Below, in pieces: positions 38,409 to 52,530 of a DNA stretch of 64,000 nt; position 1 is the first letter of the stretch, and every line of letters begins with the position of its first letter. This DNA comes from a virus. The translations under genes and the position numbers were made by a program. Location of the stretch: positions 1 to 64,000 of the IMG/VR virus record IMGVR_UViG_3300037092_000015. One strand, 5' to 3'. The notes under the pieces are model-generated. The model saw only the letters and a program-made list of their open reading frames with translations, was not told the DNA's origin and searched no databases.

Positions 38409-38807
38409 TTAGTTTGGCCACGCGCTGACCGTGACCGTGTTTGTTTGGACTGACATGCCCCTGGCATACAGCGTCAAGTTGGTCGCACTCGCATACCAGA
38501 TGTAGGCGCCAGCCGCGTTGCTTGAAGGGTTCCACTGGGCCGTAACCGTCACCCAGTTGTTAGTGCTGCCGAGCGACACTTGGCCCCACACCGGCAAGTC
38601 GTTCGTGCTGGCCAGCGCCCCGGTTTGGACCGTGTAGGACTTGCTCGGAATGTTCACCGTCGTGAGCGCGAACGCCGCGGAATAGTTGGTCCCTGTCGTC
38701 AGCGTCGTTCCGCTGCCCCATATCAAGGATGCCTTCATCGAAAGCATCCCGGCTGCGAACGCCACCGCTAGCGCCACCACCACCACTATCTTGCTTCTGT
38801 CTTTCAT
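38409..38807 (-). CDS. Signal-peptide Thr/Asn-rich protein inside the neck/tail module
   Basis: MKDRSKIVVVVALAVAFAAG. Confidence 0.65.
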   Translation of the reverse strand: MKDRSKIVVVVALAVAFAAGMLSMKASLIWGSGTTLTTGTNYSAAFALTTVNIPSKSYTVQTGALASTNDLPVWGQVSLGSTNNWVTVTAQWNPSSNAAGAYIWYASATNLTLYARGMSVQTNTVTVSAWPN

Positions 38808-38839
38808 TTTGATTTTGTCTTTCTGTGTTGCCGTCATTT

Positions 38840-39400
38840 TCACCAAGTTCCAACTTCCCCGATGTCGTTTGCCGTGGAAAATGTAAGCTCAGCCCCAGAC
38901 AAGAACACGTTCGCCATGCCGGGCCTTGCCACCGGACGCAGCGGCATCCAGCCGTCGTAATGCAGCGGGAACTCTTCGCTCATGTTCGACATGCTCCGCA
39001 CAGTGTCGCGCAGCGCCGCTATGCTCTGCGTCAAAGACTCCTTGCCGGGTGGCTGACCGTCAGCTTGCGGCAGCCGGTTCCTGAACCCGTGCCCTTGGAG
39101 CAGCACCACGAGCCAGCGCCGGTCGGCCCGGTGCGTCCGGTCCGCGTCCTGCAAGCTGACCCCAGGCCGCTGCTTTTCTCCGTTCAAGCACACCAGCACC
39201 GTCGGCTCGTCGTTGGCGACGGTGTAAACGTATTCCCAAAGGTGCGACTCGCCTTCCATGCTCTTGGTGTTAGGCTCAGCACTTGGCGCAACGCGGGGCT
39301 GAGTGAACATCTTGTCTATCCAAGAGCACAAGGCGTTCAACTGCCAGTCTTCCGTCACTGGCGGCTTTGGCATGTTCGGCCTGCGTTCACCCCAAGCCAT
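38840..39400 (-). CDS. Putative tail terminator/completion protein
   Basis: Synteny with Mu-like neck genes. Confidence 0.55.
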   Translation of the reverse strand: MAWGERRPNMPKPPVTEDWQLNALCSWIDKMFTQPRVAPSAEPNTKSMEGESHLWEYVYTVANDEPTVLVCLNGEKQRPGVSLQDADRTHRADRRWLVVLLQGHGFRNRLPQADGQPPGKESLTQSIAALRDTVRSMSNMSEEFPLHYDGWMPLRPVARPGMANVFLSGAELTFSTANDIGEVGTW

Positions 39401-39897: not shown

Positions 39898-40028
39898 GGC
39901 TTGACTACAAACCTTTCCGTTTTCACCACCTTGCCGTTGTGGTCCAGCGTCAACCGCACTGCATTGACAGCCTTTTCTGGTGGCTGCTCTTTGCCCTCTC
40001 GGTCGTAAAACTTGATAACAGTCTTCAT
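39894..40028 (-). CDS. 44-aa ORF coupled to the MuF stop (possible immunity or partner protein)
   Basis: ATGA overlaps at both ends; MKTVIKFYDREGKE...; not in the provided ORF track. Confidence 0.6.
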   Translation of the reverse strand: MKTVIKFYDREGKEQPPEKAVNAVRLTLDHNGKVVKTERFVVKP

Positions 40029-43000
40029 GTTGCTGCCGTGTTGCAGGAACTATTATACTTAGCCTTCACGGCTGCGTCAATAGCCTTTTTGAGAGCTAGG
40101 AACGCGTCACGCCCATCCTTACCATCCATCTTAGCAAACGGCTCCTTGTAAACTTCATTTCGGTTCACCAATCCGTCATTGACTAATTTGTCAATTACAC
40201 GCCCAGCAGAGAACTCCGCATAGGCTTCGTGCAGGCTTCGCATGGTCCAAAGTTCTGTTGCAATATCTTGTTCATGCCCTTTGCTGTCTGCGACATACAC
40301 AGGCCACTCCGTCTTATCTACGATAGGTTCTTTAGCCCAGCTTTTAGCGTAATCAGTAGGAAGCCGGCTTATGTCGTGACCAATGGTGCTACGGAATTTC
40401 AGCAGCGCATTGTAAAGCTCCTGATCCGCTGTCTTTGGTTCTGCAATGCTAGCATCCGGGTGAAGTAAACCACCGTCAGCCCATTGGTCTCGCCACACTC
40501 TAAACTTGTCCCCATGAGCTAACATTGCTACATCCCGAGCTTCTCTTATTCCAATCACCGCCCGATCTTTAGCGAAATCAAACTCAGCGTGCCCTAGCTC
40601 GTGCGCTAAAACATCCGGCACTGGCGTGGACACCGCCGTCTTAGTTTTGTTGTTCCACTCGCCCGCCTTGCTCCACGTCTTGCCACCTGCCTCAAAGCTA
40701 CCAAGCGCATCCGGTTCCACCAGCCGCACCACGCCGCAAATCTCGTCGGCTGCGAAGTAGTCGCACACCGTCCGCACCATCATCTTTTCAGGCAGCGACG
40801 GCGCATGGCCGATTCCTACCGTAACCACAGGCGCAGCCATGTGCGCCATGCTTGGCACCGGCAACCTTGCCGCCTCCCGCGAGTCCCGGTGCGGCGCCAC
40901 CTGCACCAGCCGCCCCGTCCGCGTGTCCTGACGCATGTAGCCGGATACCTCCACCGCCGCCACCGTCCCCGTGCGCACGCTGCCCGCTGCCGCGCTTCCT
41001 TTGACTGGCCTGTATGCCTGCATGTCCTTTGGGACTGTATGCTCTTCTGTCCATCCGCCCGGTGGCGCGTTCTTGTCGTTGACCTTATCAATGACGCTTC
41101 GCAGGCTGACTTTCTTTGCCTGCTCCGGCGCGGGGGGTTCCGGGGCTTTATACACCATTCCGAAATCGTGGCGCCGTTGGCTACCTTTCAGACGCACGTT
41201 CCGGTTAACGTGCGATATGTGCGCGATGCGACCGTGCGTATGTGTGCTACTATTCAACGACACCCTAACCCACTCACCAATGCGATAAGTCTGGTCGTGA
41301 AATTCACCAGTCTCTTGGTTCATGCGCCCGACCGTGAACTGGTTATGCCCTTCTGGATTGTGAACTTGTCCCAGATCACTGGCCACCAGTAACCCGGTGC
41401 GAACGGTTGCCTCGCTTCCCTGCAAGTGCCCGGTGCCAGCCTTGCGCTTGCCCGGTATAAGTGTGCAACAGCAATTTGCGTTTTCCGCCGCTCCACCTAC
41501 GGAGTCGCCGGGGCATTGCTGCCCGTTGCTGAATACGTGCCCCACCGGCACTTCGCCTTCAAGCACGTTCTCCGCGTGAGTGGCCCTTTTTGTTTCGCGC
41601 TCCAACTGGTCCCACATGCACGTCGCGAACCCCGCACGCTGCAAAACGTGGAGTTGCGCCATGCCGAGCGTAGCCGTCGCTTCGGTCTCCGCCACCACGC
41701 GCCCGCTGCCCGCCTCTACCTCTGCCGCCTTGCGCTTCACCCGCCGCGCCAACTCTTCCACGCTCTCACCAGCCGCCCGGCCTTCCGCAAGCTCCTTGTC
41801 CAGCCGGTCTGCCGTCTCCACCGGAAAATTGAGCAGCAGAGGTGCCCTGCTAGTGGCAAAGTCGGTTGCCTCCTCAGGTTCTGCCGCCACAGGTCCGCCG
41901 CCGCCCATTCGCCATGATTCCGGCTGTGCCGGATACGCGACGGGCTGACCACTGGCCGGTTGCCCGGCGCTAGGCGTGCCCTGTGGCGCATTGGTTGGCT
42001 GCGGGGCGGTGAGCGGACCTGAAATTGATTGCGGCGCTACCAAAGCCGCTAGGGAGTGGCTGGCGGCCATGTAAATCTCTTTGTGCGCCAGGAACAGGAG
42101 CAAGGCAACCGCCTCAAGCTCCTCTTCGCGCTTCTTCCGCCGCTTGGCTCCGTCCGCACGCTTGGCATCGGCTACCGCTGCCGCCTCTATCACGGCGACA
42201 GCACGGTCAACCGCCCGCTGGTAGCCAGCCTGAGCCTCACTACGGATGCGACGGTGCGCCGCCAGCGTCCGCTCGCGCTCGGTAGGTTCGGACGCTGTCA
42301 CCGTATCTGATTTGCGGGGTGCGCTAGCGGCCAGCGAGTGCCGTTCTGGGTGCCACACGTATGACGGATGCTCTGCGTCGTCCGTCTTCTTGAACCCGTG
42401 CCGCTCGTAGAAAGCATTCAACCTTCCTTGCAACTCGGGCGTGTCCGCGCCTGCCGTCAGTTCCAGCCGCCGCCCCGACTTGGTAGCGAAGTCTTTCAGC
42501 CGCCCCATAGCCTTGCTGCCAGCCCCCTTGCCTTGCTCCACTGCGTCAAGCCGCGTGATGAACACTGCGTCCGGGTGTATCTGTGCGCTCAACCTTACAG
42601 ACGGGTCGCTTGACCCGTGGTATCCCATGCGGCCTAGCGAGCCTTTCATGCGGGCCATGCCGAAGTCCTCCGGCCTGACGTGCTGGTTGCCGTGGAACGG
42701 GTGCCCGGGTGCAAACGCGCCTTGAGCAGCATTGACTACGGTGCCAGTCCTGACCGCCGTTGCCGCTACCTTTGGCTCCCACCCTAATTCCACCAGATGC
42801 CGACCCTTGCGCTCTGGTAGGCTGTAGAGCAAGTCCACCGCCGTCACCTTGCGGCCGGCGAAAGCGTCACTGCCGTCCAGTTCTTTCAACTTACCTTTTT
42901 TGAGATACGCGATGGTCAGGTGCAGATGGTAGCTGTGCTCGCTCGGCTCCTTGTTCGCAAAGAACTCTTCCACCAGTTCCGCGTGCAGCCGCTCCAGTTC

Positions 43001-43738
43001 CGGGCTATCAATATCCACCTTGAGCACGTCGTAGTCCGAGCACTCGAACCGGGATACCTTGCCGAGCGTGAATTTGACAGGCCCATAACCAGCCAAGAGC
43101 ACTTGCAGCCTGTTCGCGTCGAAGTCAAAGTTGAAGCCGTATAAGACAGTGACGTGCGTCTCACTCTCACGCCCATTCTCTGGGTCCAGCGCCGCGTCCG
43201 GCACGTTGGCCTTGCCCCACGCTAGCAACTCGTCCTCTAGCGCCCCGTGCACCATAGCCATGAGGCAACCGCGCTCCGGGGTGCTGGCCTGCACCGCGTC
43301 TTGCGTGTAGAGGGAACCGTCAACGGCTCCTAACTTCAAGTCTCTAGAGGTCGCTCGGTCTCCGAGGCTGTAATTTGACGGAACATACAGAGCAGCCTGC
43401 TCTCGATCTAAAAAATGTCCGCTCTCGGTTTCAAACCCTTCGTGCTGAACATTACTCCAGCCGCCCGAATTATCTTTCGATCTTGGATTGACTGCTGAAT
43501 ATTCTCCGAACGCTTGCCAATGGCTCGGCCCCTTGTAACGCTTCCCGCCAATGACTAGAACCGCGTGCCGTATCTTGCCGCTAGGCTCCCCTACAGGATC
43601 GTTCGCCGCGTCCTGCGCGTGCTTGCTCCATTGGTTGCCCCAGAACTTGTGACCCGCCGCGAATGCACCTTCTGCCGCCCGCACCGCCGCCAGCGCCTCT
43701 ATGCCCCGTGCCAGTTTCTCTATGCGCACCGCCTTCAT
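40025..43738 (-). CDS. MuF (SPP1 gp7-like) polyvalent head protein with 2H phosphoesterase, GNAT, MuF and zincin domains
   Basis: HVT/HLT 2H motifs; QGKGAGS..FYERHGF GNAT; AETEAT..FSNGQQCPGD..NCCC MuF; HELGH..HEAYAE zincin; likely start MKAVRIEK. Confidence 0.85.
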   Translation of the reverse strand: MKAVRIEKLARGIEALAAVRAAEGAFAAGHKFWGNQWSKHAQDAANDPVGEPSGKIRHAVLVIGGKRYKGPSHWQAFGEYSAVNPRSKDNSGGWSNVQHEGFETESGHFLDREQAALYVPSNYSLGDRATSRDLKLGAVDGSLYTQDAVQASTPERGCLMAMVHGALEDELLAWGKANVPDAALDPENGRESETHVTVLYGFNFDFDANRLQVLLAGYGPVKFTLGKVSRFECSDYDVLKVDIDSPELERLHAELVEEFFANKEPSEHSYHLHLTIAYLKKGKLKELDGSDAFAGRKVTAVDLLYSLPERKGRHLVELGWEPKVAATAVRTGTVVNAAQGAFAPGHPFHGNQHVRPEDFGMARMKGSLGRMGYHGSSDPSVRLSAQIHPDAVFITRLDAVEQGKGAGSKAMGRLKDFATKSGRRLELTAGADTPELQGRLNAFYERHGFKKTDDAEHPSYVWHPERHSLAASAPRKSDTVTASEPTERERTLAAHRRIRSEAQAGYQRAVDRAVAVIEAAAVADAKRADGAKRRKKREEELEAVALLLFLAHKEIYMAASHSLAALVAPQSISGPLTAPQPTNAPQGTPSAGQPASGQPVAYPAQPESWRMGGGGPVAAEPEEATDFATSRAPLLLNFPVETADRLDKELAEGRAAGESVEELARRVKRKAAEVEAGSGRVVAETEATATLGMAQLHVLQRAGFATCMWDQLERETKRATHAENVLEGEVPVGHVFSNGQQCPGDSVGGAAENANCCCTLIPGKRKAGTGHLQGSEATVRTGLLVASDLGQVHNPEGHNQFTVGRMNQETGEFHDQTYRIGEWVRVSLNSSTHTHGRIAHISHVNRNVRLKGSQRRHDFGMVYKAPEPPAPEQAKKVSLRSVIDKVNDKNAPPGGWTEEHTVPKDMQAYRPVKGSAAAGSVRTGTVAAVEVSGYMRQDTRTGRLVQVAPHRDSREAARLPVPSMAHMAAPVVTVGIGHAPSLPEKMMVRTVCDYFAADEICGVVRLVEPDALGSFEAGGKTWSKAGEWNNKTKTAVSTPVPDVLAHELGHAEFDFAKDRAVIGIREARDVAMLAHGDKFRVWRDQWADGGLLHPDASIAEPKTADQELYNALLKFRSTIGHDISRLPTDYAKSWAKEPIVDKTEWPVYVADSKGHEQDIATELWTMRSLHEAYAEFSAGRVIDKLVNDGLVNRNEVYKEPFAKMDGKDGRDAFLALKKAIDAAVKAKYNSSCNTAAT

Positions 43739-44011
43739 CACTCCACCAAGTCCAGCCGCACCTTCACCGGCACTGCCGCCCGACCGCAACAGCCCAGCGC
43801 CCGCACGTATAGCCGCCGCTCCGGAGCCGGAAACCCCGCCGCCTTGAACATGGCGTCCAACTTCCGGCGCTCCTGCGCCTTCCGCCGCCGCTCGCTGCAT
43901 GGTTTCACTGGCTGTCATTGCTCCGTCACGTAACATGCCGGGAGAGAGGGAGGAAAAGGGACCTCTGGCTCCCGGCCCGGCCTGAGCCGGCAAATTGAAG
44001 TCGCTTGCTCA

Positions 44012-44641
44012 TCACGGCGACCCTAGCTTGTCTTGTGCCCACTTTGGGAACATTTGCGGCGACCCAGTCCGCAAGTCAACCGGCGCCTCCAAGCTGCCTT
44101 GCCGAACCGTTCCCTTGATCGGCGGATTGAACGTCAAATAGTCAAACGCTCCGCCGCCTTTCACCGGCACGCACACCGGGTTGACCCAGTCGCGCCCGCA
44201 CGGGTCTGTTGGCGGTGTTATGGCGTGCGTTGCGATACCGCCGATGCGCCGTCCGCCTTCTACCCTGCCGTCCATCCACTCCTCTGCTGCTTTGTTGAAC
44301 GTCGCCAACGGAGCGTAAGCCCCGTTCTCTGTCAGCACCACCATCTGCAATCCTGCCTTGCTGTTTACCAGCCGCCAAGCGGCCATATAGACAACGTGGT
44401 CAAACGCCTCAGGAGGCACCGATCCGGGCGTCACGCTCAAAGGAGTGTGACCAGCATTCTGTATGGCCGCACGAACCTTCCGCACCATCTGCTCAAGCAG
44501 CATCGTGCTGCGCAATGGCGGTGTAGCCACCGGCGACCCGCTGCCGTCAGCCTTCGTCACCTGCTCGTAGTCGAGCGCCATGAACAGGTCCTTCTGCTCT
44601 GGCACCACCCAATTGGTGTTGATTTGCGGGGCTTGAATCAC
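44012..44641 (-). CDS. Head-tail adaptor (Mu gp36-like)
   Basis: VRAAIQ..GSVPPEAFDHVVYMAAWRL; synteny. Confidence 0.65.
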   Translation of the reverse strand: MIQAPQINTNWVVPEQKDLFMALDYEQVTKADGSGSPVATPPLRSTMLLEQMVRKVRAAIQNAGHTPLSVTPGSVPPEAFDHVVYMAAWRLVNSKAGLQMVVLTENGAYAPLATFNKAAEEWMDGRVEGGRRIGGIATHAITPPTDPCGRDWVNPVCVPVKGGGAFDYLTFNPPIKGTVRQGSLEAPVDLRTGSPQMFPKWAQDKLGSP

Positions 44642-44703
44642 GCGGTTGAAATTGAAGCCCGCCGCCGCGCCTGGCTGGCAACGGCGGCGAGCGTGTCAGT
44701 CCG

Positions 44704-45324
44704 TTACTGGCTGTTCGCCCACACGCTGTAGTTCGTGAGCGTCGCACCGGACGCGCCGATGCTGTAGATGTAGATGTAGGGGATCGCACCCTTGCCTGGC
44801 GTTGTGCTGACGCTATACACCTTGTTTGTCACTGTGATTGTGCCTGGCACACCGCTCAGCGCAAGCGTCACCGTGTCAAACAGTTGCATCCCGTTCGCGT
44901 TGTAGCAAGCACCGTTAGTCCCTCCAGTGCTCAAGGAAGGCGGCTGAACGGAAGCATACAGCACGTATGTCGCCGTGTAGGCTCCGCCTCCATTAGTGGC
45001 CGTAGCTGCCCCGTTGAACTGCAAGGCTAGCGAGTTCCCCGACAGCACGCCGTTAGGGCTTCCGCCTCCTCCGAATACCGTCGCAGGCGCAGCGCAATTC
45101 ACCAGCACTAGGTTGTTCGTGGTGACGCCCGAAGAGATTGACTGCGGATACAGACCGTTGGTGCAAACCAGCGGAGCGCCCGGCCCGTTGATGTTGCCAG
45201 ATACCAGCACTTGCGACGGCAATCCTAACCCGAATGGGTTAGCCGAAGCCGCTTGGCTGGTGAACGATAAGGCGACCACTGCAAAGGCCAGCGCCGCGAT
45301 GAATGTAATTTTCTTGATGCTCAT
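44704..45324 (-). CDS. Signal-peptide Thr/Asn-rich protein after the capsid gene (decoration-like)
   Basis: MSIKKITFIAALAFAVVALSFTSQA. Confidence 0.7.
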   Translation of the reverse strand: MSIKKITFIAALAFAVVALSFTSQAASANPFGLGLPSQVLVSGNINGPGAPLVCTNGLYPQSISSGVTTNNLVLVNCAAPATVFGGGGSPNGVLSGNSLALQFNGAATATNGGGAYTATYVLYASVQPPSLSTGGTNGACYNANGMQLFDTVTLALSGVPGTITVTNKVYSVSTTPGKGAIPYIYIYSIGASGATLTNYSVWANSQ

Positions 45325-45409
45325 ATTGGTCTTGTTTCTTTTTTTTGTGTTGTTTGGTCCGGCCAAAGCCGCCCGGCCCGTCGCCGGGCAGGCTCAAGCC
45401 GTCGGTTCG

Positions 45410-47188
45410 CTATTTCACCACGCACTGGATGCCTTGGCGCTCGTCGCCAACGCCGACGCCGAACATGGCCCGCAGGTGCATGTTCGCCATTTCGTAGTTG
45501 TGGTCGAGGAACTTAACGCTCAGGAACGGAATCCGGAGCTTCGGGCTCATCACGATCTCCAGCGCAGCCGTGCTCGGAATCTCCGGCATGATCTTGGTGT
45601 AGTCCAGCGGTGCGCGGCTGACGAACAGCAGCGCGTTGCGCGTGCCGGCAAAGCCAAGGACCGACGCGGTGGTCGGATCCCCGGTGGACACCGAGTAGTT
45701 CGGTGGGGTGGCGCCGTCGGAAACTTCCGTCAGCGTGTCCGTCATCAACTGCGACTCGCTATACTTCACGTTCCCTACGCGGTGGTAGTTGCCAGTCTTG
45801 ATGAGGTCGTTGCCAGTCTTGCCGGCAATCGCGTCCTTGATTGCCCGCAAGGTTTGGTTCAACACAAACCCAGAGTCGGCAGGCAACAGCGAATAAATGT
45901 CTGGATGCAACCAAGCAAACCGCTCCACATCGGGGGAGTCTTCGGGCTCCTGGCCGCCGGGGAACTTGGCCATGTTCATCACGCGAGGCAGTTCCGCCAG
46001 GAACGTGCTAACAGTAGCGCCCTTGACGTTGAACACTGCGCGGTTCAACACCGGGTCAGTGTATGCCGGGGCGAACTTCTTGCCAGCCGTGACCGTGCCG
46101 TCGTTCTCGATGCGCTGCGTCCCATTGACGATTGCGTTGACCAGTTGGAACACAATGCCTTCGCACAGCCCATAGATTTGCACCGTCTTCTGCTCGTTGA
46201 AGAGCTGCCGGTAGGTGCTCGCCAAGAGCGTGTTCATGATGCTAATCGGGATGCCGATGTAGTTGTTCATTTGCACGTTGGCATTCCGAGCGTTGCCGAC
46301 GTTGCCGCCCCATGCGCTGTTAGTCAGGTTCGTCCGCTTCTGGTAGCCCGGAACGATGATGTAGCGGGTGACCGCCTCCTGCATGAACAACACCGGCTGG
46401 TTTTCAACGTCCGTGCTGATGTCGTTCAACTGCGGCAGCATGTTCTCGATGTGCCCCAGGTTCCACGTCATAATCAGGTCGCTGTTCAAGGCGCCCTGCC
46501 CGGTCGTCGGACTCGTGCTGCCCGGATCGTTGTAGTCCGCAGCGCGAATAAGGTCCAAGATCGGGGCGTCGCCGCCGAGCGCCTTGACCTTGTTTTCGAT
46601 CATGCCGATAAACGTCGCCCGCGCATTGGCCGCCTCAGTAGCCGCCATAATCGCCCGGGTGGCCGTGCCGCCGGTTCCGCAGGTGCGGATCAAACCGCCT
46701 TGGCGCCACGTCTTCAGGAAAGGCTCGCTGGCCTTGACGTAGCCTTGCACCATCTCGCCAAGCGACTGCTCGCAGCCGTGCAGCGTGCCGGTCTTCAGTT
46801 CGCCGGCCTGTATCTTCCGGTCGGACAGATCGTCTTGCTTCACCTTCACCGGCAGGTTGGCGATGTAGGCAACGCCGCGTCCCGGCTTGAGCATCTCAAT
46901 GTCGAGCGCCTCAGCCCGGATGGTGTCTTTCACCTCTTCCTTGAGCGCGATGGCCCCGCGAACACGCGCCTGCACAATGGCAGTGTCGATGCTCACTTCG
47001 GCCCGCACCCGCTCCCGAGCTTCGGCAGCCTTGATCTTCTCCGCGTTGTCGTAGTCGGTGGCGCGAACAGCCCAGCCGTCGTCCATCAGCAGGTCGACCT
47101 GCTCCTTCTCAACTTTCAGTCGTGTGCCCACTTCCCAATTCTTCTCGGGGCAGGCTTTCACCACGACGATTTCGTGTTTGTCGTTCAT
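45410..47188 (-). CDS. Major capsid protein with an N-terminal scaffold-like extension
   Basis: Follows the protease; strong codon bias; capsid-like C-terminal LLFVSRAP..MFGVGVGD. Confidence 0.8.
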   Translation of the reverse strand: MNDKHEIVVVKACPEKNWEVGTRLKVEKEQVDLLMDDGWAVRATDYDNAEKIKAAEARERVRAEVSIDTAIVQARVRGAIALKEEVKDTIRAEALDIEMLKPGRGVAYIANLPVKVKQDDLSDRKIQAGELKTGTLHGCEQSLGEMVQGYVKASEPFLKTWRQGGLIRTCGTGGTATRAIMAATEAANARATFIGMIENKVKALGGDAPILDLIRAADYNDPGSTSPTTGQGALNSDLIMTWNLGHIENMLPQLNDISTDVENQPVLFMQEAVTRYIIVPGYQKRTNLTNSAWGGNVGNARNANVQMNNYIGIPISIMNTLLASTYRQLFNEQKTVQIYGLCEGIVFQLVNAIVNGTQRIENDGTVTAGKKFAPAYTDPVLNRAVFNVKGATVSTFLAELPRVMNMAKFPGGQEPEDSPDVERFAWLHPDIYSLLPADSGFVLNQTLRAIKDAIAGKTGNDLIKTGNYHRVGNVKYSESQLMTDTLTEVSDGATPPNYSVSTGDPTTASVLGFAGTRNALLFVSRAPLDYTKIMPEIPSTAALEIVMSPKLRIPFLSVKFLDHNYEMANMHLRAMFGVGVGDERQGIQCVVK

Positions 47189-47254
47189 TTGTGTCTGCTT
47201 TCTTTTCTGTTGTTGTCTGCTTTGCCCTTGTTCTGTGTTTCGGGGGGCACCCGC

Positions 47255-50200
47255 TCACCGCGTCAGCGGTAAATTCTTCTTCGCCGGGTGGTCGCGCTCG
47301 TAGGCGAGCACCTCAAGCACCTCAAGCCCAGTGGCCGGCTTTTTCGGCGGCAGCTTAACCTTCACAGGCATGACCGAAGCCATAACCTGCTCAGCTTTCT
47401 GGCGCCGCGCCGATAGCGACTCAATAACTCCCTTGGACGCCGCGCCTACTGACGCCAGCGACGGCGGCAGCGCCGGGGTGGCCGAGTGCACCGTGGCCGG
47501 GGACGCGACAGCGGATGCCTGTGCCATGCTACCTGCCGAACCTTTTTCTGTGACGGTCGTATGATAATGCTCGTGCGCCGCTTTCATTGCTTGCCGGTGG
47601 GTGTTGAATACGCCGTGGTCTTTCCACAGACCAGCGCTGTCAGGATGACCGGCAGAACTAAGAGCGAAACCTTTGCGCCGTGACAAAGGGTTGATATTGT
47701 ATTGCACAGTGTCACCGCGCAGATGGCCGCCCGGAACTTCCTTCTGGAAACTATTAGCCTCTTGATCGTAGGCACCCGTCCCTGGCCCAAACGTATTCCA
47801 ACTATCTTCGTCAGCCAAATTGTGCGTCTTGCGTGCGTCTGCGCTGGCCTTCCTTGCGGCCTCGCTCCAAGTGGCCCGCACGGTCTCCGCCGCGTCCAGT
47901 TCCACCGCCTTGACCTCTCCGCCTTGCTCCACCCAGCTTGCCACCACCTTGCCGGCATCAAAGCCGCCCTCGCTCGCGTAGGCCAGCGCAACCTTCTCCC
48001 CACCGCCCACGACCGGAACGTAACTCGTCTTCCGCTCCACTAGCACAGCCGGGGCGCCCAGCGTCACCGAACCGCCGTCCGCTGCGACCGTGAACTGCAC
48101 CCGCAAGCTCTTGCCGTCCTTGCCGCAGACAACCGCTCCCCAGTCGCCGTCGTTGTCGTAGTCGCAAAGAATATCCTGCACCCAGATGCCGCCGCAAGGA
48201 CCGCACGCGTTGGCACCCACCTCTGGCTCCTTCTGGAACCGTGGGTCGTTCTTGGCCGCCTCGCGCACCAAGTCAGCTAAGTCGCTGTAGAGCATTGCAC
48301 TGGCGCGGACGGTAGCCTCGCTCCGCTGCTCTTGCGCCTCGGCGGCATGAACCGATCTGGATGAAGTAGCGTCGGTGGCTTGGACGCGACTGCGTAACAC
48401 GCCCGCTTTGTCCAGTTCCTTGCCGTGCTTTTCGGCATGGGATTCATGCTCCTTTGCCACAGATTCCCATTGGCTTGCAGTGTTGAGATGCCACTTCCGC
48501 AAGTTGGGTTTGTCTTTGTTGAAATCCGAACCGGCAAGTTCTCGCATCTGCGCGGACTTACCTTGCAATTCTTCCGCCGCGTCTAAGTGCGCTGAATAGG
48601 CTTTCATGTGCCCTGCCGTATTGCTTGCTTCATCCGTAAGCCTGTGCGCCCTTGCACTTCTGGATTCGGCCGCCGCCTTCCGCGCTGCATCGGACCAAGT
48701 AGCCTGCACCACATTGCCAGTAGCCCGCACGACCTCGCGCCCGCCCGCCATTAACTCCGTAGCCCGCACCGGCGGCATCGCACTGAACGCCGGCCTGTTC
48801 GTCAACGTGCCAAGGACAAAGGCTACCCCGGTGATCCGCGCCGGGTTGCTCACGCTCCCCCGCACCCCGTCCGGGAACGCCAGAGCAGGCTTCGCGCAGT
48901 CGCAAGCCGCCACACCGTTCTGGCACGTCCCGCAAACGCACTTCGCGTAGTCCGCGTCCGTGCCGAATGAAGGAGACCACCGACGCCAGTCGCGGTCGTT
49001 AACCGCCTTGGCACCGCTGCCGCTCGGCCTGCCTTCCAACAGCACCGAAGGTCGACCGTAAACCGGGTCGTTGCCAGCGCTGAACTCTGTAGCCCACACG
49101 CTCGCCTGCTTCTCGTCATGCTCGAAGCAACCGTATGGCTCCTGGTCCGGCTTCGCAGCCTTGATCGCGTCCATGCTCTCCTGGCATACCTTGGCGTCGC
49201 GCTCGGGCACAACGTCCACCGTCAAAGTCAACGCGCAGTCGCGGCCCTTGGTCACCGGGCCGGAGAACCCCGCCGTGATGGTGTGGACGCCGCCTGGCGC
49301 CCAGCAGAAACGGACGGGAGCATTCACGCTCCAAGGTTCACTCTTGATTGAAATCTCTTCCGCCACTGCCGAGTAGCAGCGCACGATGTTGCTGTTGTCT
49401 TTGCTCATAGATTGGTTGGTTGCTTTGTTCTTGCCGTAAGCTGCCGCCTCTTTTGCTTTCCAAGTTGCCTTGTGCTTTTCCGCCAGTTTTGAATGCTCAA
49501 ATTCAGCGTTGCCGTGATATTCCTGCATCACTCTGTCGTTTTGGGCAACAGCCTCGCATTTCAGTTTCTTATGCGCCTTTGCGGCATCCTTGTGCGCTTC
49601 TGCCGCCTTTGCGTGGCCCGGCATGTTGTGCATTTCAAGCGCCGTTTGCGTCCACTTCTGAGCGTCGTGTGAAAACTGTTCGGCGGACCAGTCGCGCCGC
49701 ACATCCTCTTTATCCAACACCCCTGCTAATGGACTTTTTGAATACTGGTTCCCGTGAAACTCGTGCCCCGCCGCATACGCGCCAACCGCCGCCGTTACCG
49801 TGCCGAGACGGGAGCCGGATTCTGTGGCGTTCATGCGCTCCATTTCTTGCAGTTCCATCGCCCTGTTGTGCGTTGTCACTCCGCGCTGGTGGTGTATCGC
49901 CATACCTCTGTGATACTCAGCTTCCTCGCCCGACAGTTCTATTTTCCTGCTGCAAGCCAAATGAGCATCATGCGCCTTTTCGTGCGCCGCGTGCGCCGCT
50001 TGATGTTGCCCAAAGTTCCTTGTCCCGGCAGCTTGCATTGTCAAGTTGTCTGCAATATCGCTATCCTTTGCTGCCTGCCGCCTCGCCTCCAGCGCCGCGT
50101 CCCGGGCCGCCTGGCTCCACGTCGCCCGCACCGTGCCCGTGCGAACGGTGCAGGATGCTTTTGCAGTGCCCGCTTTGCTGTGGTGAGTTGTAGCCGCTGA

Positions 50201-50488
50201 CTTGTGGTAGGCAATCTGCATCTGATGATATTGGCTATCGCCACCGTTTTCGATAGCCGTCTGGTGCCGTTCTGCCGCGATTGCGTGGAATTGAACCGCG
50301 CCATTATGGGCAACCTTGTCTCCTAGCATGTTGGCTGCACTGCTCTCCTTGTCTGCCATGTCTGAATATAGTGCCGCCAGTTTAATGCTAGGGTTTTCGC
50401 TATTCTTGGCAGCACGATGCCCCGCCGCGTTCCGGTTGCCGACCGGGGCGCCCGCCAGCACTGCGTTCCGTTGTGTCGTGTCACTCAT
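47255..50488 (-). CDS. Mu-like prohead protease embedded in a modular polyprotein
   Basis: CFEHDEKQAS, RRWSPSF, LGTLTNRPAFSAMPPV core (about 48765-49408) flanked by His/Ala-rich modules. Confidence 0.8.
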   Translation of the reverse strand: MSDTTQRNAVLAGAPVGNRNAAGHRAAKNSENPSIKLAALYSDMADKESSAANMLGDKVAHNGAVQFHAIAAERHQTAIENGGDSQYHQMQIAYHKSAATTHHSKAGTAKASCTVRTGTVRATWSQAARDAALEARRQAAKDSDIADNLTMQAAGTRNFGQHQAAHAAHEKAHDAHLACSRKIELSGEEAEYHRGMAIHHQRGVTTHNRAMELQEMERMNATESGSRLGTVTAAVGAYAAGHEFHGNQYSKSPLAGVLDKEDVRRDWSAEQFSHDAQKWTQTALEMHNMPGHAKAAEAHKDAAKAHKKLKCEAVAQNDRVMQEYHGNAEFEHSKLAEKHKATWKAKEAAAYGKNKATNQSMSKDNSNIVRCYSAVAEEISIKSEPWSVNAPVRFCWAPGGVHTITAGFSGPVTKGRDCALTLTVDVVPERDAKVCQESMDAIKAAKPDQEPYGCFEHDEKQASVWATEFSAGNDPVYGRPSVLLEGRPSGSGAKAVNDRDWRRWSPSFGTDADYAKCVCGTCQNGVAACDCAKPALAFPDGVRGSVSNPARITGVAFVLGTLTNRPAFSAMPPVRATELMAGGREVVRATGNVVQATWSDAARKAAAESRSARAHRLTDEASNTAGHMKAYSAHLDAAEELQGKSAQMRELAGSDFNKDKPNLRKWHLNTASQWESVAKEHESHAEKHGKELDKAGVLRSRVQATDATSSRSVHAAEAQEQRSEATVRASAMLYSDLADLVREAAKNDPRFQKEPEVGANACGPCGGIWVQDILCDYDNDGDWGAVVCGKDGKSLRVQFTVAADGGSVTLGAPAVLVERKTSYVPVVGGGEKVALAYASEGGFDAGKVVASWVEQGGEVKAVELDAAETVRATWSEAARKASADARKTHNLADEDSWNTFGPGTGAYDQEANSFQKEVPGGHLRGDTVQYNINPLSRRKGFALSSAGHPDSAGLWKDHGVFNTHRQAMKAAHEHYHTTVTEKGSAGSMAQASAVASPATVHSATPALPPSLASVGAASKGVIESLSARRQKAEQVMASVMPVKVKLPPKKPATGLEVLEVLAYERDHPAKKNLPLTR

Positions 50489-50643
50489 GTCACTTGAGCA
50501 GTTGCACCCGGTTAACCGACGCTGCGTAATCCGTTTCGTGTCTGCTTCGCGGGCTATGCTCATTGAACACGCCCGCCACTGCCGTTGTAAGCCGTTCGCT
50601 CACGTCCGTTTATGTTTACCGACTCTATTCAATCTTCTTTGTT

Positions 50644-52530
50644 TCAATCCGCGCCCAGCCCGCGAGGGCGGGGCGACATTCGGTTCGTCTTTGAAATTTC
50701 GTCCACGGTTGCCACGACATTTTTCCACTCGCCGTTTCCGGTTCCCGCAACCTTGCACTTCACAACGGCCTGCTCGACCTTTGCCAACTGCTCCGCCGTA
50801 GCCTTGGACAGCGCCGCTCGCAGCCGGTAGCTGCTAGCCGCCGCCCGCGCCTCAACCTGCTCCGGCTCCTGTTCGCCGCCGACTGGTGCCCCGCCTTGCG
50901 CCTCTGATTGCAAAGCCATCGACGCCTTTGCTTGCTGGACTTGACGTTCTAGTTGCTGTTCAAACTTTTCCTCTTCGGTCAGCGCCTCTCCTTGGACCTG
51001 TATCACGCCGTTCACAAGCACTTGGTCACCAGGTTGCGGCTGCTTCAACCCGACCACCTTGTAGGCTTCTTCCGCAACCACCGGCATCTTGCACGTCGTA
51101 GTGATCGTGCCCATGCGTACCGCCGCTTCCTGCGGAGACTCAATGTGCGTAAAGTCAGCCGTCACCCTCGGGCGCTCCTTGGCGTCACCGTAATTCACAG
51201 TCAGTAGCGTCGTGGCGAACTGGTACTCCAAAACTTCTGCCACCCAGTCCGTTACCGCTTCAAGCTTCTCCTGCTTAACTTCACCGTGCACCTTGCCTAG
51301 ACCGTAGCTGCCGCCGCCTTTGCCTTGGTCTCCCGTGTCGCTAGTTAGCGTTTGGCCTAGGAACAACTGCTCGCACCACTTCTCTGCAAGGGAAATCATC
51401 ACCCTTATCGGGTTGTCCGCCGTGATGCTCTGCGGTGCTATCACAGTCGGCTTCATGCTATCGCTCTGCGCTGCATAGACGATGAAACCTTGCGCCGCGC
51501 ACCGGGCCGCCGCCGCCTCGAACTGGTCAATCTCTGACTGAGAAATGCCTGGCATGTATGGGATGGCCATGAACGGGTTGCCGAACTTTTGCCCGAAGTT
51601 GCGCATCCAGTCCATCGCAAACACGATGTTCAGCCACGCCGTAGCAATGCACCGCATCTCGCCCGCCATGAGAAAGCTGCCGCTCTTGCTCTTGTGCTTC
51701 GCCACCATGAACTTGCGCGGGTCGTTCAGCAGCTTGCGCGGCACAACAGAACCCGGAAACGAAAGGTTGTCCTCTCCGCGCCCGTCGTCCGCAACCCCCA
51801 CACTTCCGTCCGCCTGCACCGCTATGTAGCGCGGGTTGACCCACCCGGACGCACGCACTGTTCGCTCTAGCTTGCCGCCGCCTACCGATGCAGGGTTTGA
51901 CCAGAGCAGTTCCGTGATGCTGATACCGTTCGGTATGGCGTCCGTAAGGTCGTAAACCATCCCCTTGAAGTTGTCCTCTTCCTTGAACCTGTCCGGCTCG
52001 AAACTACCGAAACTGCGCCGCACGAAGTCCGCCTTCTCAACCGCGCTCTTAGTCGGCGGTGTGCTTTCGTCAACCGTGAACGGAGTTACCTTGTAGTTCA
52101 CCATCTTTGCCGCCGTCCGCAACGTGTTCAAGCAGCGCCGATACGTCGGCCACGTGTCTGCGATTTTCACTCCCAAAGCTGCTTGCTGCCAAAGCGACCC
52201 CGCCGCCGCGCCACGAAGCAACGCGGAAATTTGCGGGATGGAGAGCACGTCTGGCAATCCCAACCACCAATCACTGAGCGCGTTTGCTGGCACCTGCCGC
52301 CCCGCCAAGTCCCCCGCCGCCGCCTTCGCCGGCACTTGCTTGCCGCGCCGTATCGAAGCAGGCAGTTCACCAACGGCCCTAACCAAGTTTGACACCGCGC
52401 CGCCAAATGGAAACGACACGGCCTTGACCGGCTTCCGGTTCACCGTGTAGAGGAGGTAATTAACTACTCCGGCGAGATACGCTACCACTTTGCACCTCCA
52501 CAAAGGAAAAGGCCGGCGGCTTCGGGACAC
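50644..52530 (-). CDS. Portal protein (DUF935/Mu gp29-like); start uncertain
   Basis: DAIPNGISITELLW, WMRNFGQKFGNP, FLGQTLTSD..GGSYGLGKVHGEV. Confidence 0.88.
   Translation of the reverse strand: MSRSRRPFPLWRCKVVAYLAGVVNYLLYTVNRKPVKAVSFPFGGAVSNLVRAVGELPASIRRGKQVPAKAAAGDLAGRQVPANALSDWWLGLPDVLSIPQISALLRGAAAGSLWQQAALGVKIADTWPTYRRCLNTLRTAAKMVNYKVTPFTVDESTPPTKSAVEKADFVRRSFGSFEPDRFKEEDNFKGMVYDLTDAIPNGISITELLWSNPASVGGGKLERTVRASGWVNPRYIAVQADGSVGVADDGRGEDNLSFPGSVVPRKLLNDPRKFMVAKHKSKSGSFLMAGEMRCIATAWLNIVFAMDWMRNFGQKFGNPFMAIPYMPGISQSEIDQFEAAAARCAAQGFIVYAAQSDSMKPTVIAPQSITADNPIRVMISLAEKWCEQLFLGQTLTSDTGDQGKGGGSYGLGKVHGEVKQEKLEAVTDWVAEVLEYQFATTLLTVNYGDAKERPRVTADFTHIESPQEAAVRMGTITTTCKMPVVAEEAYKVVGLKQPQPGDQVLVNGVIQVQGEALTEEEKFEQQLERQVQQAKASMALQSEAQGGAPVGGEQEPEQVEARAAASSYRLRAALSKATAEQLAKVEQAVVKCKVAGTGNGEWKNVVATVDEISKTNRMSPRPRGLGAD

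What the first reader, a model, noticed from the sequence alone, without database searches (positions are those of the whole stretch)
40025..50488. Head polyproteins built with a linker-tag-cargo grammar
MuF and the protease protein are strings of modules joined by a recurring linker (AVRTGTVVNA, TVRTGLLVAS, SVRTGTVAA, TVRTGTVRAT, SRLGTVTAA, VVRATGNVVQAT, ETVRAT). Each linker is followed by one of a few short tags: GH[KPE]F[WH]GNQ (about 43640, 42695, 49755), TWS[QDE]AAR.A (about 50115, 48690, 47860), HNPEGHNQFT (about 41345) or VEVSGYMR..GRLVQVAPH (about 40920). A further tag, GAPVGNRNAAG (about 50440), follows VLA at the N-terminus. Inference: the linkers are prohead-protease sites that release packaged cargo proteins, and the tags are DNA-binding or ejection signals. 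Polyvalent MuF proteins are known; the shared grammar across two genes is the notable part.
Basis: partly seen in the sequence, partly recalled or inferred. Interest (0 to 1): 0.82.

Follow-up and report, generated by a model that had tools for sequence, protein, structure and literature searches.

The report
Phage head polyproteins: cut sites plus headers
Two giant head proteins of an uncultured peat phage are strings of modules joined by probable cut sites of the phage's own capsid protease, and each module starts with one of a few short "header" peptides that recur in hundreds of other phages, always where a protein's final N-terminus is predicted to be; what reads them is unknown.

Summary
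In detail: every linker and tag is in the sequence, within about 35 bases of the stated coordinates.

Protein B (1102 aa) holds a herpes-assemblin/T4-gp21-like serine protease core. Protein A (1237-1322 aa) is a MuF polyvalent protein with 2H, GNAT and zincin modules.

**Linkers.** The functional part of each linker is aliphatic-x-Ala. This motif also ends B's protease core. It is crowded in the capsid protein's N-terminal extension, and its Ala is invariant at the border with the HK97-fold body. It matches herpes assemblin sites such as VQA-S.

**Tags.** Relatives show the tags are separate units. TWSDAAR and GH.F.GNQ follow x-A only in proteins with a B-like protease. In other phages they follow x-K (HK97-type protease), x-N or x-E, or directly follow the start Met of small proteins. 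So the linker tracks the protease and the header stays constant, always at the predicted mature N-terminus.

**Spread.** GHPFRGNQ and GAPxGNxNA each occur in at least 119 IMG/VR loci. No Pfam model or paper describing them was found.

No cleavage has been shown, and header function is unknown. This scan has already reported cut-site polyproteins and another header peptide on other phage DNA. I call this a new variant of a known kind.

The parts
50644..52530 (-). Portal protein (628 aa), Mu type
   Evidence: Pfam Portal_Mu E 3.2e-38 and PHROG 113 E 2e-34.
47255..50563 (-). Protein B: protease polyprotein, 1102 aa from Met1. Public gene calls start at Met26 (window 50488).
   Evidence: ORF. 35 homologues share the core and the grammar. 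The Atlas record starts at residue 26.
50453..50488 (-). B short leader ending in the site AVLA| (residues 26-37)
   Evidence: Homologues show the same layout: MNNTILA|GAP.., MSEQIKA|GAP.., ILRA|GAP...
50414..50452 (-). Header GAPVGNRNAAGHR
   Evidence: 22 copies in the B family, 21 with h-x-A upstream. At least 119 IMG/VR loci carry the motif.
50153..50413 (-). B module 1 body: His/Ala-rich helical hairpin
   Evidence: Body similar to module 2 (z 5.3) although the headers differ.
50123..50152 (-). Linker CTVRTGTVRA|, predicted cut after Ala147
50075..50122 (-). Header TWSQAARDAALEARRQ
49817..50074 (-). B module 2 body: helical hairpin
49790..49816 (-). Linker GSRLGTVTA|
49742..49789 (-). Header AVGAYAAGHEFHGNQY
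   Evidence: Same register as the two copies in A and as the A homologues.
49382..49741 (-). B module 3 body: helical hairpin
   Evidence: z 4.4 against module 2.
48782..49381 (-). Prohead serine protease core (B residues 395-594), with invariant His482 and Ser530
   Evidence: Alignment A1. AF2 pLDDT 85. VIA-align matches: VZV protease Z 7.3, T4 gp21 Z 7.1, HCMV protease Z 4.8. No Pfam or NCBIfam hit.
48701..48781 (-). Release linker with three sites: PPVRA|TELMAGGREVVRA|TGNVVQA|
   Evidence: The conserved motif 'PAFxAMxPV[KR]A' ends the core in all homologues. pLDDT is below 50 here.
48653..48700 (-). Header TWSDAARKAAAESRSA
48320..48652 (-). B module 4 body: helical
   Evidence: weak similarity to modules 2 and 3.
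48302..48319 (-). Site EATVRA| with no header after it
47894..48301 (-). B module 5: Cys-containing domain, function unknown
   Evidence: It sits at a different place in homologues P0008 and P0032.
47873..47893 (-). Linker AAETVRA|
47825..47872 (-). Header TWSEAARKASADARKT
47258..47824 (-). B C-terminal module, function unknown
   Evidence: 68% identical to the C-terminus of P0005.
45410..47188 (-). Major capsid protein (592 aa): N-terminal extension of 216 aa plus an HK97-fold body
   Evidence: Foldseek probability 1.00, E 4e-11, to many phage capsid proteins. 44 homologues.
46541..47188 (-). Capsid N-terminal extension with 11 h-x-A motifs, none followed by a header
   Evidence: 12 h-[KRQ]-A in the whole capsid protein against 1.9 expected; 11 of its h-x-A motifs lie in the extension. 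Helical in the model.
46532..46555 (-). Predicted capsid maturation site DLIRA|ADY
   Evidence: Ala216 is invariant in 35 sequences, always as [VI]-[KRT]-A. It lies in a segment with pLDDT below 50.
40025..43738 (-). Protein A: MuF polyvalent protein, 1237 aa from Met86. The longest ORF starts at TTG 43993.
43676..43738 (-). A leader ending in the site AAVRA|
   Evidence: Homologues show KVLA|, AVKA| and TVQA| before the same header.
43628..43675 (-). Header AEGAFAAGHKFWGNQW
42794..43627 (-). A module 1: unknown domain plus a 2H phosphoesterase
   Evidence: Pfam 2_5_RNA_ligase2, E 2.3e-10, 41 bits, above the cut-off.
42728..42763 (-). Linker ATAVRTGTVVNA|
42680..42727 (-). Header AQGAFAPGHPFHGNQH
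42314..42679 (-). A module 2: GNAT-like acetyltransferase
   Evidence: Weak Pfam GNAT hits, E 0.0013-0.03. Homologue P0037 carries precomputed GNAT families.
41414..42313 (-). A module 3: MuF head-morphogenesis region
   Evidence: PHROG 2468 E 9e-12 and PHROG 2662 E 8e-21. Pfam Phage_Mu_F is below its cut-off.
41381..41410 (-). Linker ATVRTGLLVA|
41330..41380 (-). Header SDLGQVHNPEGHNQFTV
   Evidence: Homologues: VKA|VAGQAHNPEGHNQW and VVRA|GQAGQVNNPEGHNQW.
40985..41329 (-). A module 4: small domain of unknown function
   Evidence: No family hit.
40955..40984 (-). Linker GSVRTGTVAA|
40883..40954 (-). Header VEVSGYMRQDTRTGRLVQVAPHRD
   Evidence: Homologue P0037 has PVRA|AEHDVSGEARDASGKW at the same place.
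40028..40882 (-). A module 5: zincin-like domain (HELGH ... HEAYAEF)
   Evidence: The motifs are in the sequence. P0092 has the same pair of motifs behind TWS headers. No Pfam hit.

Best explanation
The head module of this roughly 75-kb uncultured phage encodes two polyproteins. They are most likely loaded into the procapsid as fusions and then cut into pieces by the phage's own maturation protease.

Protein B carries that protease, an assemblin/gp21-fold Ser-His enzyme. Its predicted specificity is aliphatic(P3)-x-Ala(P1), cutting before a small residue. This is the same logic as herpesvirus assemblin.

The predicted cuts would do the following:
- free the protease from its own C-terminal flank;
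- chop the 216-residue scaffold-like extension off the capsid protein;
- release at least 5 modules from A (2H phosphoesterase, GNAT, MuF, a small domain, zincin);
- release at least 7 modules from B.

Each released module of A and B, except MuF and one B module, would begin with one of a small set of 13-24 residue headers: TWSDAAR.., A.GAFA.GH.F.GNQ, ..NPEGHNQF, GAP.GN.NAAG, VEVSG..R. The capsid-extension fragments carry no header.

The headers are autonomous, swappable units. They occur on unrelated bodies. In other phages they follow whatever site the local protease uses, or they sit directly after the start Met. So their constant property is to form the N-terminus of the predicted final protein.

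I infer that they act after cleavage as labels on the pieces that stay in the head. They may bind DNA or a conserved head part and so travel with the genome.

Status of each step:
- Shown: the motifs, the folds, the conservation and the co-variation.
- Inferred: the cleavage itself, which bond is cut, packaging of the pieces, and any header function.
For: **Protease**
- The core is conserved in 35 homologues, with invariant His and Ser.
- The fold matches VZV protease (Z 7.3) and T4 gp21 (Z 7.1), clear of the next unrelated rows at Z 4.3 or less.
- The gene lies between the Mu-type portal and an HK97-fold capsid gene.

**Site**
- h-x-A directly precedes 36 of 37 TWS tags.
- 107 of 108 headers in the family have it within 13 residues upstream.
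- It ends the protease core in all homologues.
- Its Ala is invariant at the capsid extension/body border, and there are two further conserved copies.
- h-[KRQ]-A counts are 12 observed against 1.9 expected in the capsid protein; 11 of its h-x-A motifs lie in the extension.
- The sites fall in low-confidence, probably flexible, segments of both models.
- Pseudorabies assemblin sites are YLQA-T and VQA-S (PMC4498786).

**Co-variation**
- A header-only profile search of 1.84 billion proteins gave 63 proteins. P1 before the header falls into classes that are uniform within each protein: A, K, N, E or Met.
- The 4 proteins that hold a B-like protease core all have P1 = Ala. None of about 37 proteins in the other classes holds the core (Fisher p about 1e-4, my arithmetic).
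- Locus L002 has an HK97/S78-type protease (PANPDA signature; weak Pfam S78 hit on its representative). It places 10 TWSDAAR headers and a GHPFRGNQ header after L-x-G-x-K, and its capsid N-terminus has GxK sites.

**Header autonomy**
- About 20 small proteins of 57-143 aa start with the header right after Met (17 as M-[AT]-WSDAAR, 3 as MWSDAAR) and have unrelated bodies.
- There are 252 GH.F.GNQ headers in 120 IMG/VR loci. P1 is K in 158. In 38 of 43 loci with several headers, all headers share one P1.
- Four ORFs cannot extend upstream of M-GD..GHPFRGNQ.
- Paralogous cargo genes share the layout leader, K site, header.
- In B, similar hairpin bodies carry three different headers.

**Selection on the peptide**
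- The codons of the linkers differ from one another.
Against: - There are no proteomic, N-terminal sequencing or expression data. The phage is uncultured and no cultured relative was found.
- The protease assignment rests on a middling structural Z (about 7) and conserved His and Ser. No Pfam or NCBIfam protease model matches.
- h-x-A is a short motif that is frequent in Ala-rich proteins: A has 4 h-[KRQ]-A against 4.7 expected. Individual sites cannot be called from sequence alone.
- Three of A's sites have V, N or A at P2 rather than K/R/Q.
- Many of the counts are over homologous proteins and are not independent events.
- A has its own zincin domain, which the literature proposes as the processing enzyme of polyvalent proteins (PMC5512222).
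- Nothing shows that the released pieces stay in the capsid or reach the host.
- The header function is pure inference.
- For GAPxGNxNA, the upstream residues in other phages show no clear site pattern.
Confidence: 0.65

Rival explanations
1. The polyproteins are processed, but by the zincin-like metallopeptidase embedded at the C-terminus of A, as proposed in general for polyvalent proteins. The prohead protease in B would not be the enzyme. The h-x-A motif would then be the zincin's site or irrelevant.
For: A ends in an HELGH...HEAYAEF domain. Iyer et al. 2017 propose autoprocessing by such domains (PMC5512222). P0092 joins TWS headers to a similar zincin.
Against: - The same motif marks B, the end of B's protease core and the capsid protein's invariant border.
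- P1 = Ala goes with the B-like protease core in the same polypeptide.
- The motif equals assemblin specificity.
- In L002 the sites switch to x-K together with an HK97-type protease.
Confidence: 0.08
2. No cleavage happens at these places. Linker plus tag are conserved docking or hinge peptides inside full-length proteins, for instance binding sites for the portal, the capsid shell or DNA, and the h-x-A is part of that peptide.
For: There are no cleavage data. Some phage virion proteins with peptidase domains are packaged unprocessed (N4 vRNAP, PMC5512222). Short N-terminal leaders such as MNTVKA|TWS would give only tiny propeptides.
Against: - The residues before a given header change by class (A, K, N, E, Met) while the header stays constant. 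That is hard to explain if they form one binding peptide.
- The invariant site lies at the capsid extension/body border, where cleavage is the rule in HK97-type systems.
- The motif sits at the end of the protease core, as at the assemblin release site.
Confidence: 0.1
3. The tags are not labels that act after cleavage. They are the P' side (exosite) of the protease substrate and serve to recruit the protease or make cutting efficient.
For: TWSDAAR begins exactly at P1' in every class. A small first residue (T/A/S/G) suits many proteases.
Against: - The same headers follow sites of at least four P1 classes linked to different protease families. They also follow the start Met of stand-alone proteins that need no cut.
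- The 11 capsid-extension sites and the site EATVRA|S work without any header.
- The GNQ header sits 4 or 7 residues from the site, depending on the phage.
Confidence: 0.1
4. The grammar is only a trace of history: modules were copied or shuffled together with their flanks, so linkers and tags recur without any present function.
For: Modules are clearly shuffled among homologues. Hairpin bodies in B are paralogous.
Against: - Linker codons differ while the peptides are kept.
- Headers are conserved across unrelated phages and on unrelated bodies.
- The capsid site is invariant.
Confidence: 0.04

Closest known systems
Herpesvirus assemblin (protease-scaffold protein pUL26 with release and maturational sites)
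   Same: - Same fold class by structure comparison (VZV protease Z 7.3).
- The order is His, then Ser.
- The protease is fused to further assembly protein.
- A release site lies directly behind the core.
- The site logic is aliphatic-x-Ala before Ser/Thr (PrV YLQA-T and VQA-S, PMC4498786).
   Different: - There is no detectable sequence-family membership (no Pfam hit).
- The core sits in the middle of a 1102-aa chain with at least 7 predicted cut modules, not a single scaffold.
- The scaffold-like part is on the capsid protein itself.
- It is a phage, not a herpesvirus.
Polyvalent proteins of phages and conjugative elements, MuF class (Iyer, Burroughs, Anand, de Souza, Aravind 2017, PMC5512222)
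   Same: A is a MuF protein fused to a 2H phosphoesterase, a GNAT and a zincin-like peptidase. All of these are listed as typical domains, and such proteins are predicted to be packaged and delivered with the DNA.
   Different: That paper proposes processing by the embedded zincin. It names no site motif and no header peptides ('linker' and 'GNQ' do not occur in its text). Here the junctions carry the prohead protease's motif, and each module has a conserved header.
Phage T4 internal proteins and Alt with the capsid targeting sequence, cut by gp21; phiKZ/SPN3US head proteins cut by gp175/gp245
   Same: Head-internal proteins carry N-terminal propeptides that are removed by the prohead protease at a short motif. 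That motif also marks capsid, portal and protease, and long propeptides are cut several times (PMC10052503).
   Different: In T4 the conserved N-terminal peptide is the part that is cut off. Here the conserved peptide lies after the site and would stay on the product. Cargo is strung into polyproteins fused to the protease and to MuF. The P1 residue is Ala rather than Glu.
Bacteriophage Mu head module (portal gpH, gpF, protease/scaffold gpI, capsid gpT)
   Same: Mu-type portal (Pfam E 3e-38), a MuF-like protein, and a protease gene just before the capsid gene.
   Different: - B's core does not match Pfam Mu-like_Pro.
- MuF lies after the capsid gene and two small genes.
- The capsid protein is 592 aa with its own 216-aa extension.
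- The genome is not recognisably a transposable phage in this window.
Cut-site polyproteins and a 'header peptide on phage head cargo' noted earlier in this scan (e1-5740039, e1-5995657, e1-5985874 and others)
   Same: The same idea appears on other phage DNA: module borders carry the capsid protease's motif, and in one case a short conserved peptide heads each cargo module. These are AI notes that I did not check.
   Different: Those cases use other motifs (x-K, R-x-D and so on) and another header (K-[YF]-[DN]-P-x-Q-P-R). Here the site is assemblin-like x-Ala, several different headers are used side by side, and the header/linker independence was tested across protease classes.

Membership tests
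Assemblin / HK97 / gp21-fold capsid maturation serine proteases | Characteristic fold | tested here: met
   The AF2 model (pLDDT 85) matches VZV protease (Z 7.3, 101 residues aligned, rmsd 2.7) and T4 gp21 (Z 7.1, 132 aligned, rmsd 3.7). HCMV and KSHV proteases also appear in the list. Z is middling, and Foldseek alone was not significant.
Assemblin / HK97 / gp21-fold capsid maturation serine proteases | Catalytic His followed by Ser, both conserved | tested here: inconclusive
   His482 and Ser530 are invariant in 36 sequences and lie in the expected order and spacing. Their superposition on known catalytic residues was not checked, and the third triad residue is not assigned.
Assemblin / HK97 / gp21-fold capsid maturation serine proteases | Match to a curated sequence family (Peptidase_S21, S77, S78, Mu-like_Pro) | tested here: not met
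   No Pfam, NCBIfam or PHROG hit for B or for its core, even at E up to 1.
Assemblin / HK97 / gp21-fold capsid maturation serine proteases | Encoded in the head module next to the capsid gene, with shown cleavage of head proteins | tested here: inconclusive
   The gene order portal - B - capsid is met. Cleavage cannot be tested with these tools.
Polyvalent proteins (Iyer et al. 2017), MuF class | Two or more unrelated effector or enzyme domains in one polypeptide of a phage, together with a virion domain such as MuF | tested here: met
   - 2H phosphoesterase above the Pfam cut-off.
- MuF by PHROG, E 9e-12.
- GNAT weak, but homologue P0037 carries precomputed GNAT families.
- HExxH zincin motif.
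- Head-module context.
Polyvalent proteins (Iyer et al. 2017), MuF class | Packaged in the virion and delivered to the host | not testable with these tools
   No virion data exist for this uncultured phage.
HK97-fold major capsid proteins with an N-terminal scaffold (delta-type) extension removed by the protease | HK97 fold of the body | tested here: met
   Foldseek probability 1.00, E 4e-11 to 1e-7, to more than 30 phage capsid structures over about 350 columns.
HK97-fold major capsid proteins with an N-terminal scaffold (delta-type) extension removed by the protease | Helical N-terminal extension bounded by a conserved protease site | tested here: met
   Residues 43-203 are helical and 205-235 have low confidence. 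Ala216 is invariant in [VI]-[KRT]-A. Removal of the extension itself has not been shown.
T4-type capsid targeting sequence | Conserved N-terminal peptide that is itself removed by the protease | tested here: not met
   Here the conserved peptides lie on the C-terminal side of the predicted cut. Leaders of the T4 type do occur before the site in other phages (L018 and L050).

The most novel reading that the evidence does not exclude
The headers (TWSDAAR.., GD..GHPFRGNQ[WY], GAPxGNxNAAG, GTSEGxKKxW, NPEGHNQ[WF], VSGExRDxxGKW) form a shared, undescribed N-terminal address code of tailed phages. A free header at the mature N-terminus would be read by a conserved partner, such as packaged DNA, the portal or tail channel, or a host factor. 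That reading would decide which protease products are kept in the head and delivered with the genome. This would explain why the code is kept across phages with unrelated capsid proteases.
Probability: 0.25. Interest if true: 0.9.

Novelty: new variant of a known kind. Interest (0 to 1): 0.7.

Why it matters
How phages choose, load and release the proteins they inject with their DNA is known in detail only for a few model phages.

This case gives a sequence-level rule that can be read straight from genomes: the protease site comes first, then a header, then the cargo.

The rule offers three things:
- A way to predict the specificity of an unstudied capsid protease family, here x-Ala as in herpesviruses.
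- A way to find cargo genes in metagenomes by their headers.
- A defined open question, namely what reads the headers. It can be tested with peptides, procapsid co-expression and virion mass spectrometry in any cultivable phage that carries GHPFRGNQ-type headers.

If the headers do direct retention or delivery, they could be used to load foreign proteins into phage heads.

Tried and rejected
**Searches that found nothing useful**
- IMG/VR search with the capsid protein: no relatives.
- tblastn of B against 50,697 cultured-phage records: no match.
- phmmer of B against PDB sequences: nothing.
- Pfam, PHROG and NCBIfam for B, its core and its modules: nothing.
- Foldseek of the protease model: not significant, with gp21 and HCMV protease only as weak rows. 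VIA-align was needed.
- Literature searches for the header strings: only chance hits.
- ESM Atlas for B's hairpin region: no usable hit.
- Pattern scan for WSDAAREAA in 185,579 bacterial and archaeal species genomes: 44 matches, nearly all chance or out of context, with one plausible case in a Lentisphaeraceae MAG.
- tblastn of a header-rich polyprotein (L028) against cultured phages: it matched only a cargo domain, not the headers. So I could not name a cultured phage that carries the headers.
The neighbourhoods and upstream stop codons of the small M-[AT]-WSDAAR proteins could therefore not be checked. For the GNQ header, upstream stops were checked in IMG/VR loci instead.

**Ideas considered and dropped**
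- Linkers as recent DNA repeats or recombination joints: the codons differ.
- 'LYSD.AD' as a further header: it occurs only in B.
- Host signal peptidase as the enzyme acting at A-x-A-like sites: there are no signal-type hydrophobic segments at these internal sites, which lie in proteins that assemble in the cytoplasm (my reasoning).
- Asn-cyclisation self-cleavage at HN/GNQ: there is no supporting fold or evidence.

Full report
**What is there.** On the minus strand the window carries a head module:
- a Mu-type portal (52530-50644; Pfam Portal_Mu, E 3e-38);
- protein B (50563-47255, 1102 aa; public gene calls start at Met26, window 50488);
- a 592-aa protein (47188-45410);
- two small genes (45366-44704 and 44641-44012);
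- protein A (longest ORF 43993-40025).

A most likely starts at Met86 (window 43738). That start has a GGAG-type ribosome binding site, and the database protein has 1237 aa. The contig is 75,477 bases. Earlier notes of this scan call it an uncultured peat phage.

**Check of the observation.**
- In six-frame translation of the window, VRTG occurs only in A and B (4 times).
- VRA[TS] occurs 7 times: five in B, one at residue 41 of the 592-aa protein and one in the portal.
- The six VRTG-type linkers use different codons, so the peptide is conserved rather than a recent DNA copy.

**Identity of the proteins.**
- A has a 2H phosphoesterase above the Pfam cut-off, a MuF region (PHROG E 9e-12; Pfam below cut-off), a weak GNAT and a C-terminal HELGH...HEAYAEF zincin motif. 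This is a typical MuF polyvalent protein in the sense of Iyer et al. 2017 (PMC5512222).
- B matches no curated family and no PDB sequence.
- Its 35 homologues share one core, B residues about 395-594, with invariant His482 and Ser530.
- An AlphaFold model of the core (pLDDT 85) best matches varicella-zoster virus protease (Z 7.3) and T4 gp21 (Z 7.1). HCMV and KSHV proteases follow, and unrelated rows begin at Z 4.3. Foldseek alone was not significant. I take B to carry an assemblin/gp21-fold capsid protease of a family that has not been curated.
- The 592-aa protein is an HK97-fold major capsid protein (Foldseek probability 1.00, E 4e-11). It has a 216-residue, mostly helical N-terminal extension.

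**The linker is a three-residue site.** Across B and its homologues, the residues before 37 TWS tags are V/I/L at P3 (37 of 37), mostly K/R/Q at P2, and Ala at P1 (36 of 37).
- The same h-x-A precedes GAPxGNxNAAG, GTSEG and the extended GNQ tag (A.GA[FY]A.GH.F.GNQ, always 7 residues after the Ala). It also precedes NPEGHNQ and, in a homologue, HDVSGEARD..GKW.
- In 42 family proteins, 107 of 108 headers have h-x-A within 13 residues upstream. The motif's density gives a background of about 26%.
- The motif also ends the protease core in all homologues ('PAFxAMxPV[KR]A').
- In the capsid protein, h-[KRQ]-A occurs 12 times against 1.9 expected. Eleven of the protein's h-x-A motifs lie in the N-terminal extension.
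- In an alignment of 35 capsid proteins, the Ala of [VI]-[KRT]-A at the extension/body border is invariant, and two more copies are conserved.
- Both modelled sites fall in segments with pLDDT below 50.
- Herpesvirus assemblin cuts at the same kind of site. Pseudorabies virus has release site YLQA-T and maturational site VQA-S (PMC4498786).
- VRTG in front of the site is a peculiarity of this phage. Homologues mostly have D/E at P5.

**The tags are independent of the linker.** I built a profile from the TWSDAAR tag alone, excluding upstream residues, and searched 1.84 billion representative proteins. It returned 63 proteins. The residue before the tag falls into classes that are uniform within each protein:
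- Ala;
- Lys (often G-x-K or h-x-K);
- Asn (h-x-N, in at least 12 proteins);
- Glu;
- the start Met. About 20 small proteins of 57-143 aa begin with the header right after Met: 17 as M-[AT]-WSDAAR and 3 as MWSDAAR. Their bodies are unrelated and often very basic.

The four proteins that hold a B-like protease core (E 3e-22 to 3e-136) all belong to the Ala class. None of about 37 proteins in the other classes holds it (Fisher p about 1e-4, my arithmetic).

The IMG/VR locus L002 makes the same point inside one genome.
- Its 1906-aa polyprotein begins with an HK97/S78-type protease. It shows the ...VPANPDA signature, and its representative has a weak Pfam S78 hit.
- Ten TWSDAAR tags and a GHPFRGNQ tag follow L-x-G-x-K there.
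- Its capsid N-terminus has G-x-K sites.

Locus L001 has the window's layout (portal, polyprotein, 612-aa capsid protein) and uses V-[MK]-A before SWSDAAR and GTSEG. So the linker follows the protease while the header is constant.

**How widespread the headers are.**
- These loci hold 252 distinct GH.F.GNQ headers, and 227 have the form G[DE]xx-GH.F.GNQ.
- The residue before is K in 158, L in 21, F in 11, and others in the rest. P3 is V/I/L in 167.
- In 38 of 43 loci with several headers, all headers use the same P1.
- In four ORFs a stop codon lies just upstream, so the protein must start M-GD..GHPFRGNQ.
- In L018, L050 and L068, paralogous small genes share a leader of about 25 residues, a K site, the header, a Gly-rich spacer and different bodies, including GNATs. 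In L018 they lie next to the terminase genes.
- Headers can be stacked, as in GGPGSG-AQx-GHPFxGNQ.
It lies mostly at the N-terminus of small proteins (median ORF 120 aa). It also occurs after h-x-K and h-x-A sites and in the linker of a small terminase subunit.
- No Pfam model covers the GNQ or TWS headers, and no paper in the library contains the strings.
- In 185,579 bacterial and archaeal genomes the WSDAAREAA pattern gave almost only chance hits. The TWS header is thus essentially confined to phage and metagenome sequence.

**Header and body are shuffled.** In B, hairpin bodies 1, 2 and 3 resemble each other (z 5.3 and 4.4 against shuffles, headers excluded) but carry GAP, TWS and GNQ headers. 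The three TWS headers sit on different bodies. Homologues hold the same modules in other orders and on either side of the protease. The eleven fragments predicted from the capsid extension, and the short spacer peptides next to the protease, carry no header.

**Most likely mechanism.** A and B enter the procapsid as fusions to proteins that are built in anyway (MuF and the protease). The protease in B then cuts after h-x-Ala. It frees itself, removes and chops the capsid extension, and releases the modules. Each module then starts with a header. This part I hold at about 0.75-0.8. It rests on fold, position, conservation and co-variation, and not on any cleavage data.

The role of the headers is inferred with less confidence. 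Their one constant property is to sit at the predicted mature N-terminus, whatever creates that N-terminus. In other phages a separate, removable leader lies in front of them. They are therefore more likely to act after cleavage than as T4-type targeting peptides or as protease recognition elements. I suggest they mark pieces that are kept in the head, by binding DNA or a conserved head part.

**Rivals.**
- Processing by A's own zincin (PMC5512222). This does not explain the sites in B and the capsid protein, nor the link between P1 and protease type.
- No cleavage at all. This is hard to square with P1 classes that change while the header stays constant.
- Headers as P'-side recognition. This is contradicted by Met-start proteins and by sites without headers.
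- Mere duplication history. This is contradicted by codon divergence and by conservation across unrelated phages.

**Comparison with what is known, and novelty.** Capsid-protease processing of internal proteins is textbook (T4; phiKZ and SPN3US, PMC10052503). MuF polyvalent proteins are also well known. Three things appear undescribed in the sources I could search:
- a phage protease family with assemblin-like x-Ala sites that is itself the hub of a cargo polyprotein;
- a vocabulary of conserved headers placed after the cut site;
- the finding that these headers are shared by phages with different protease specificities.

This scan has already reported cut-site polyproteins with other motifs, and one other header peptide, on other phage DNA (AI notes I did not test). 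The general idea is therefore recurring, and this is a further, well-supported variant.

**Limits.**
- Many counts are over related proteins.
- The structural Z of the protease model is middling.
- Individual h-x-A sites, especially in Ala-rich A, cannot be called with certainty.
- No cultured phage with these headers could be named.

Noticed in passing
P0089, P0093, P0095, P0102, P0105, P0106, P0118, P0123, P0140; L003:8901-9020: A large class of metagenomic polyproteins places the TWSDAAR header after aliphatic-x-Asn, for example VRN|TWSDAAR and HVDN|TWSDAAR. This suggests a capsid protease, or self-cleavage, specific for Asn. One member (P0089) has DUF2213 at its N-terminus.
   Followed up: partly
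window 44704-45366 and 38409-38846 (minus strand): Two small head-module proteins (220 and 145 aa) begin with a hydrophobic, signal-peptide-like segment. A Thr/Ser/Gly-rich, probably beta-rich body follows. Neither matches any family. This is odd for genes lying between the capsid and MuF genes.
   Followed up: no
genome C1:74092 and 74725 (beyond the window's end): A 105-aa ORF carries KTVQVKSYTRDDGHH, which resembles the VEVSGYMR..VQVAPH header of A. A 243-aa ORF carries the only other VRTGT in the genome.
   Followed up: no
L213:1370-2233 and L169, L230 (IMG/VR): GAPxGNKNA occurs as tandem copies in the linker of a small terminase subunit (Pfam Phage_terminase, E 8e-22). It also occurs at the start of runs of 3-4 paralogous, very basic proteins of 58-126 aa.
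   Followed up: partly
L002:6853-7557: A GIY-YIG homing endonuclease gene sits between the protease polyprotein and the capsid gene of this IMG/VR phage.
   Followed up: no
window 47065-47188 (capsid protein residues 1-41): The capsid protein and its homologues start with a conserved small beta unit (MKxVIxKA....GD...). It ends at the first conserved site (VRA|T, or VTA|S/T in relatives). Its role is unknown.
   Followed up: no
window 50644-52530 (portal): The portal has h-R-A motifs near both ends (LVRA at residues 49-52, RLRA at 569-572) and TVRA|S at 224-227. Mu-type portals are known to be trimmed (my recollection), but conservation of these motifs was not checked.
   Followed up: no
P0092 (350 aa, metagenome): This stand-alone protein starts MAWSDAAR, has a second header and ends in a zincin with HEYGH...HELFAESF. 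Those are the same motif pair as in A's last module, so the zincin is itself a header-tagged cargo in other phages.
   Followed up: partly
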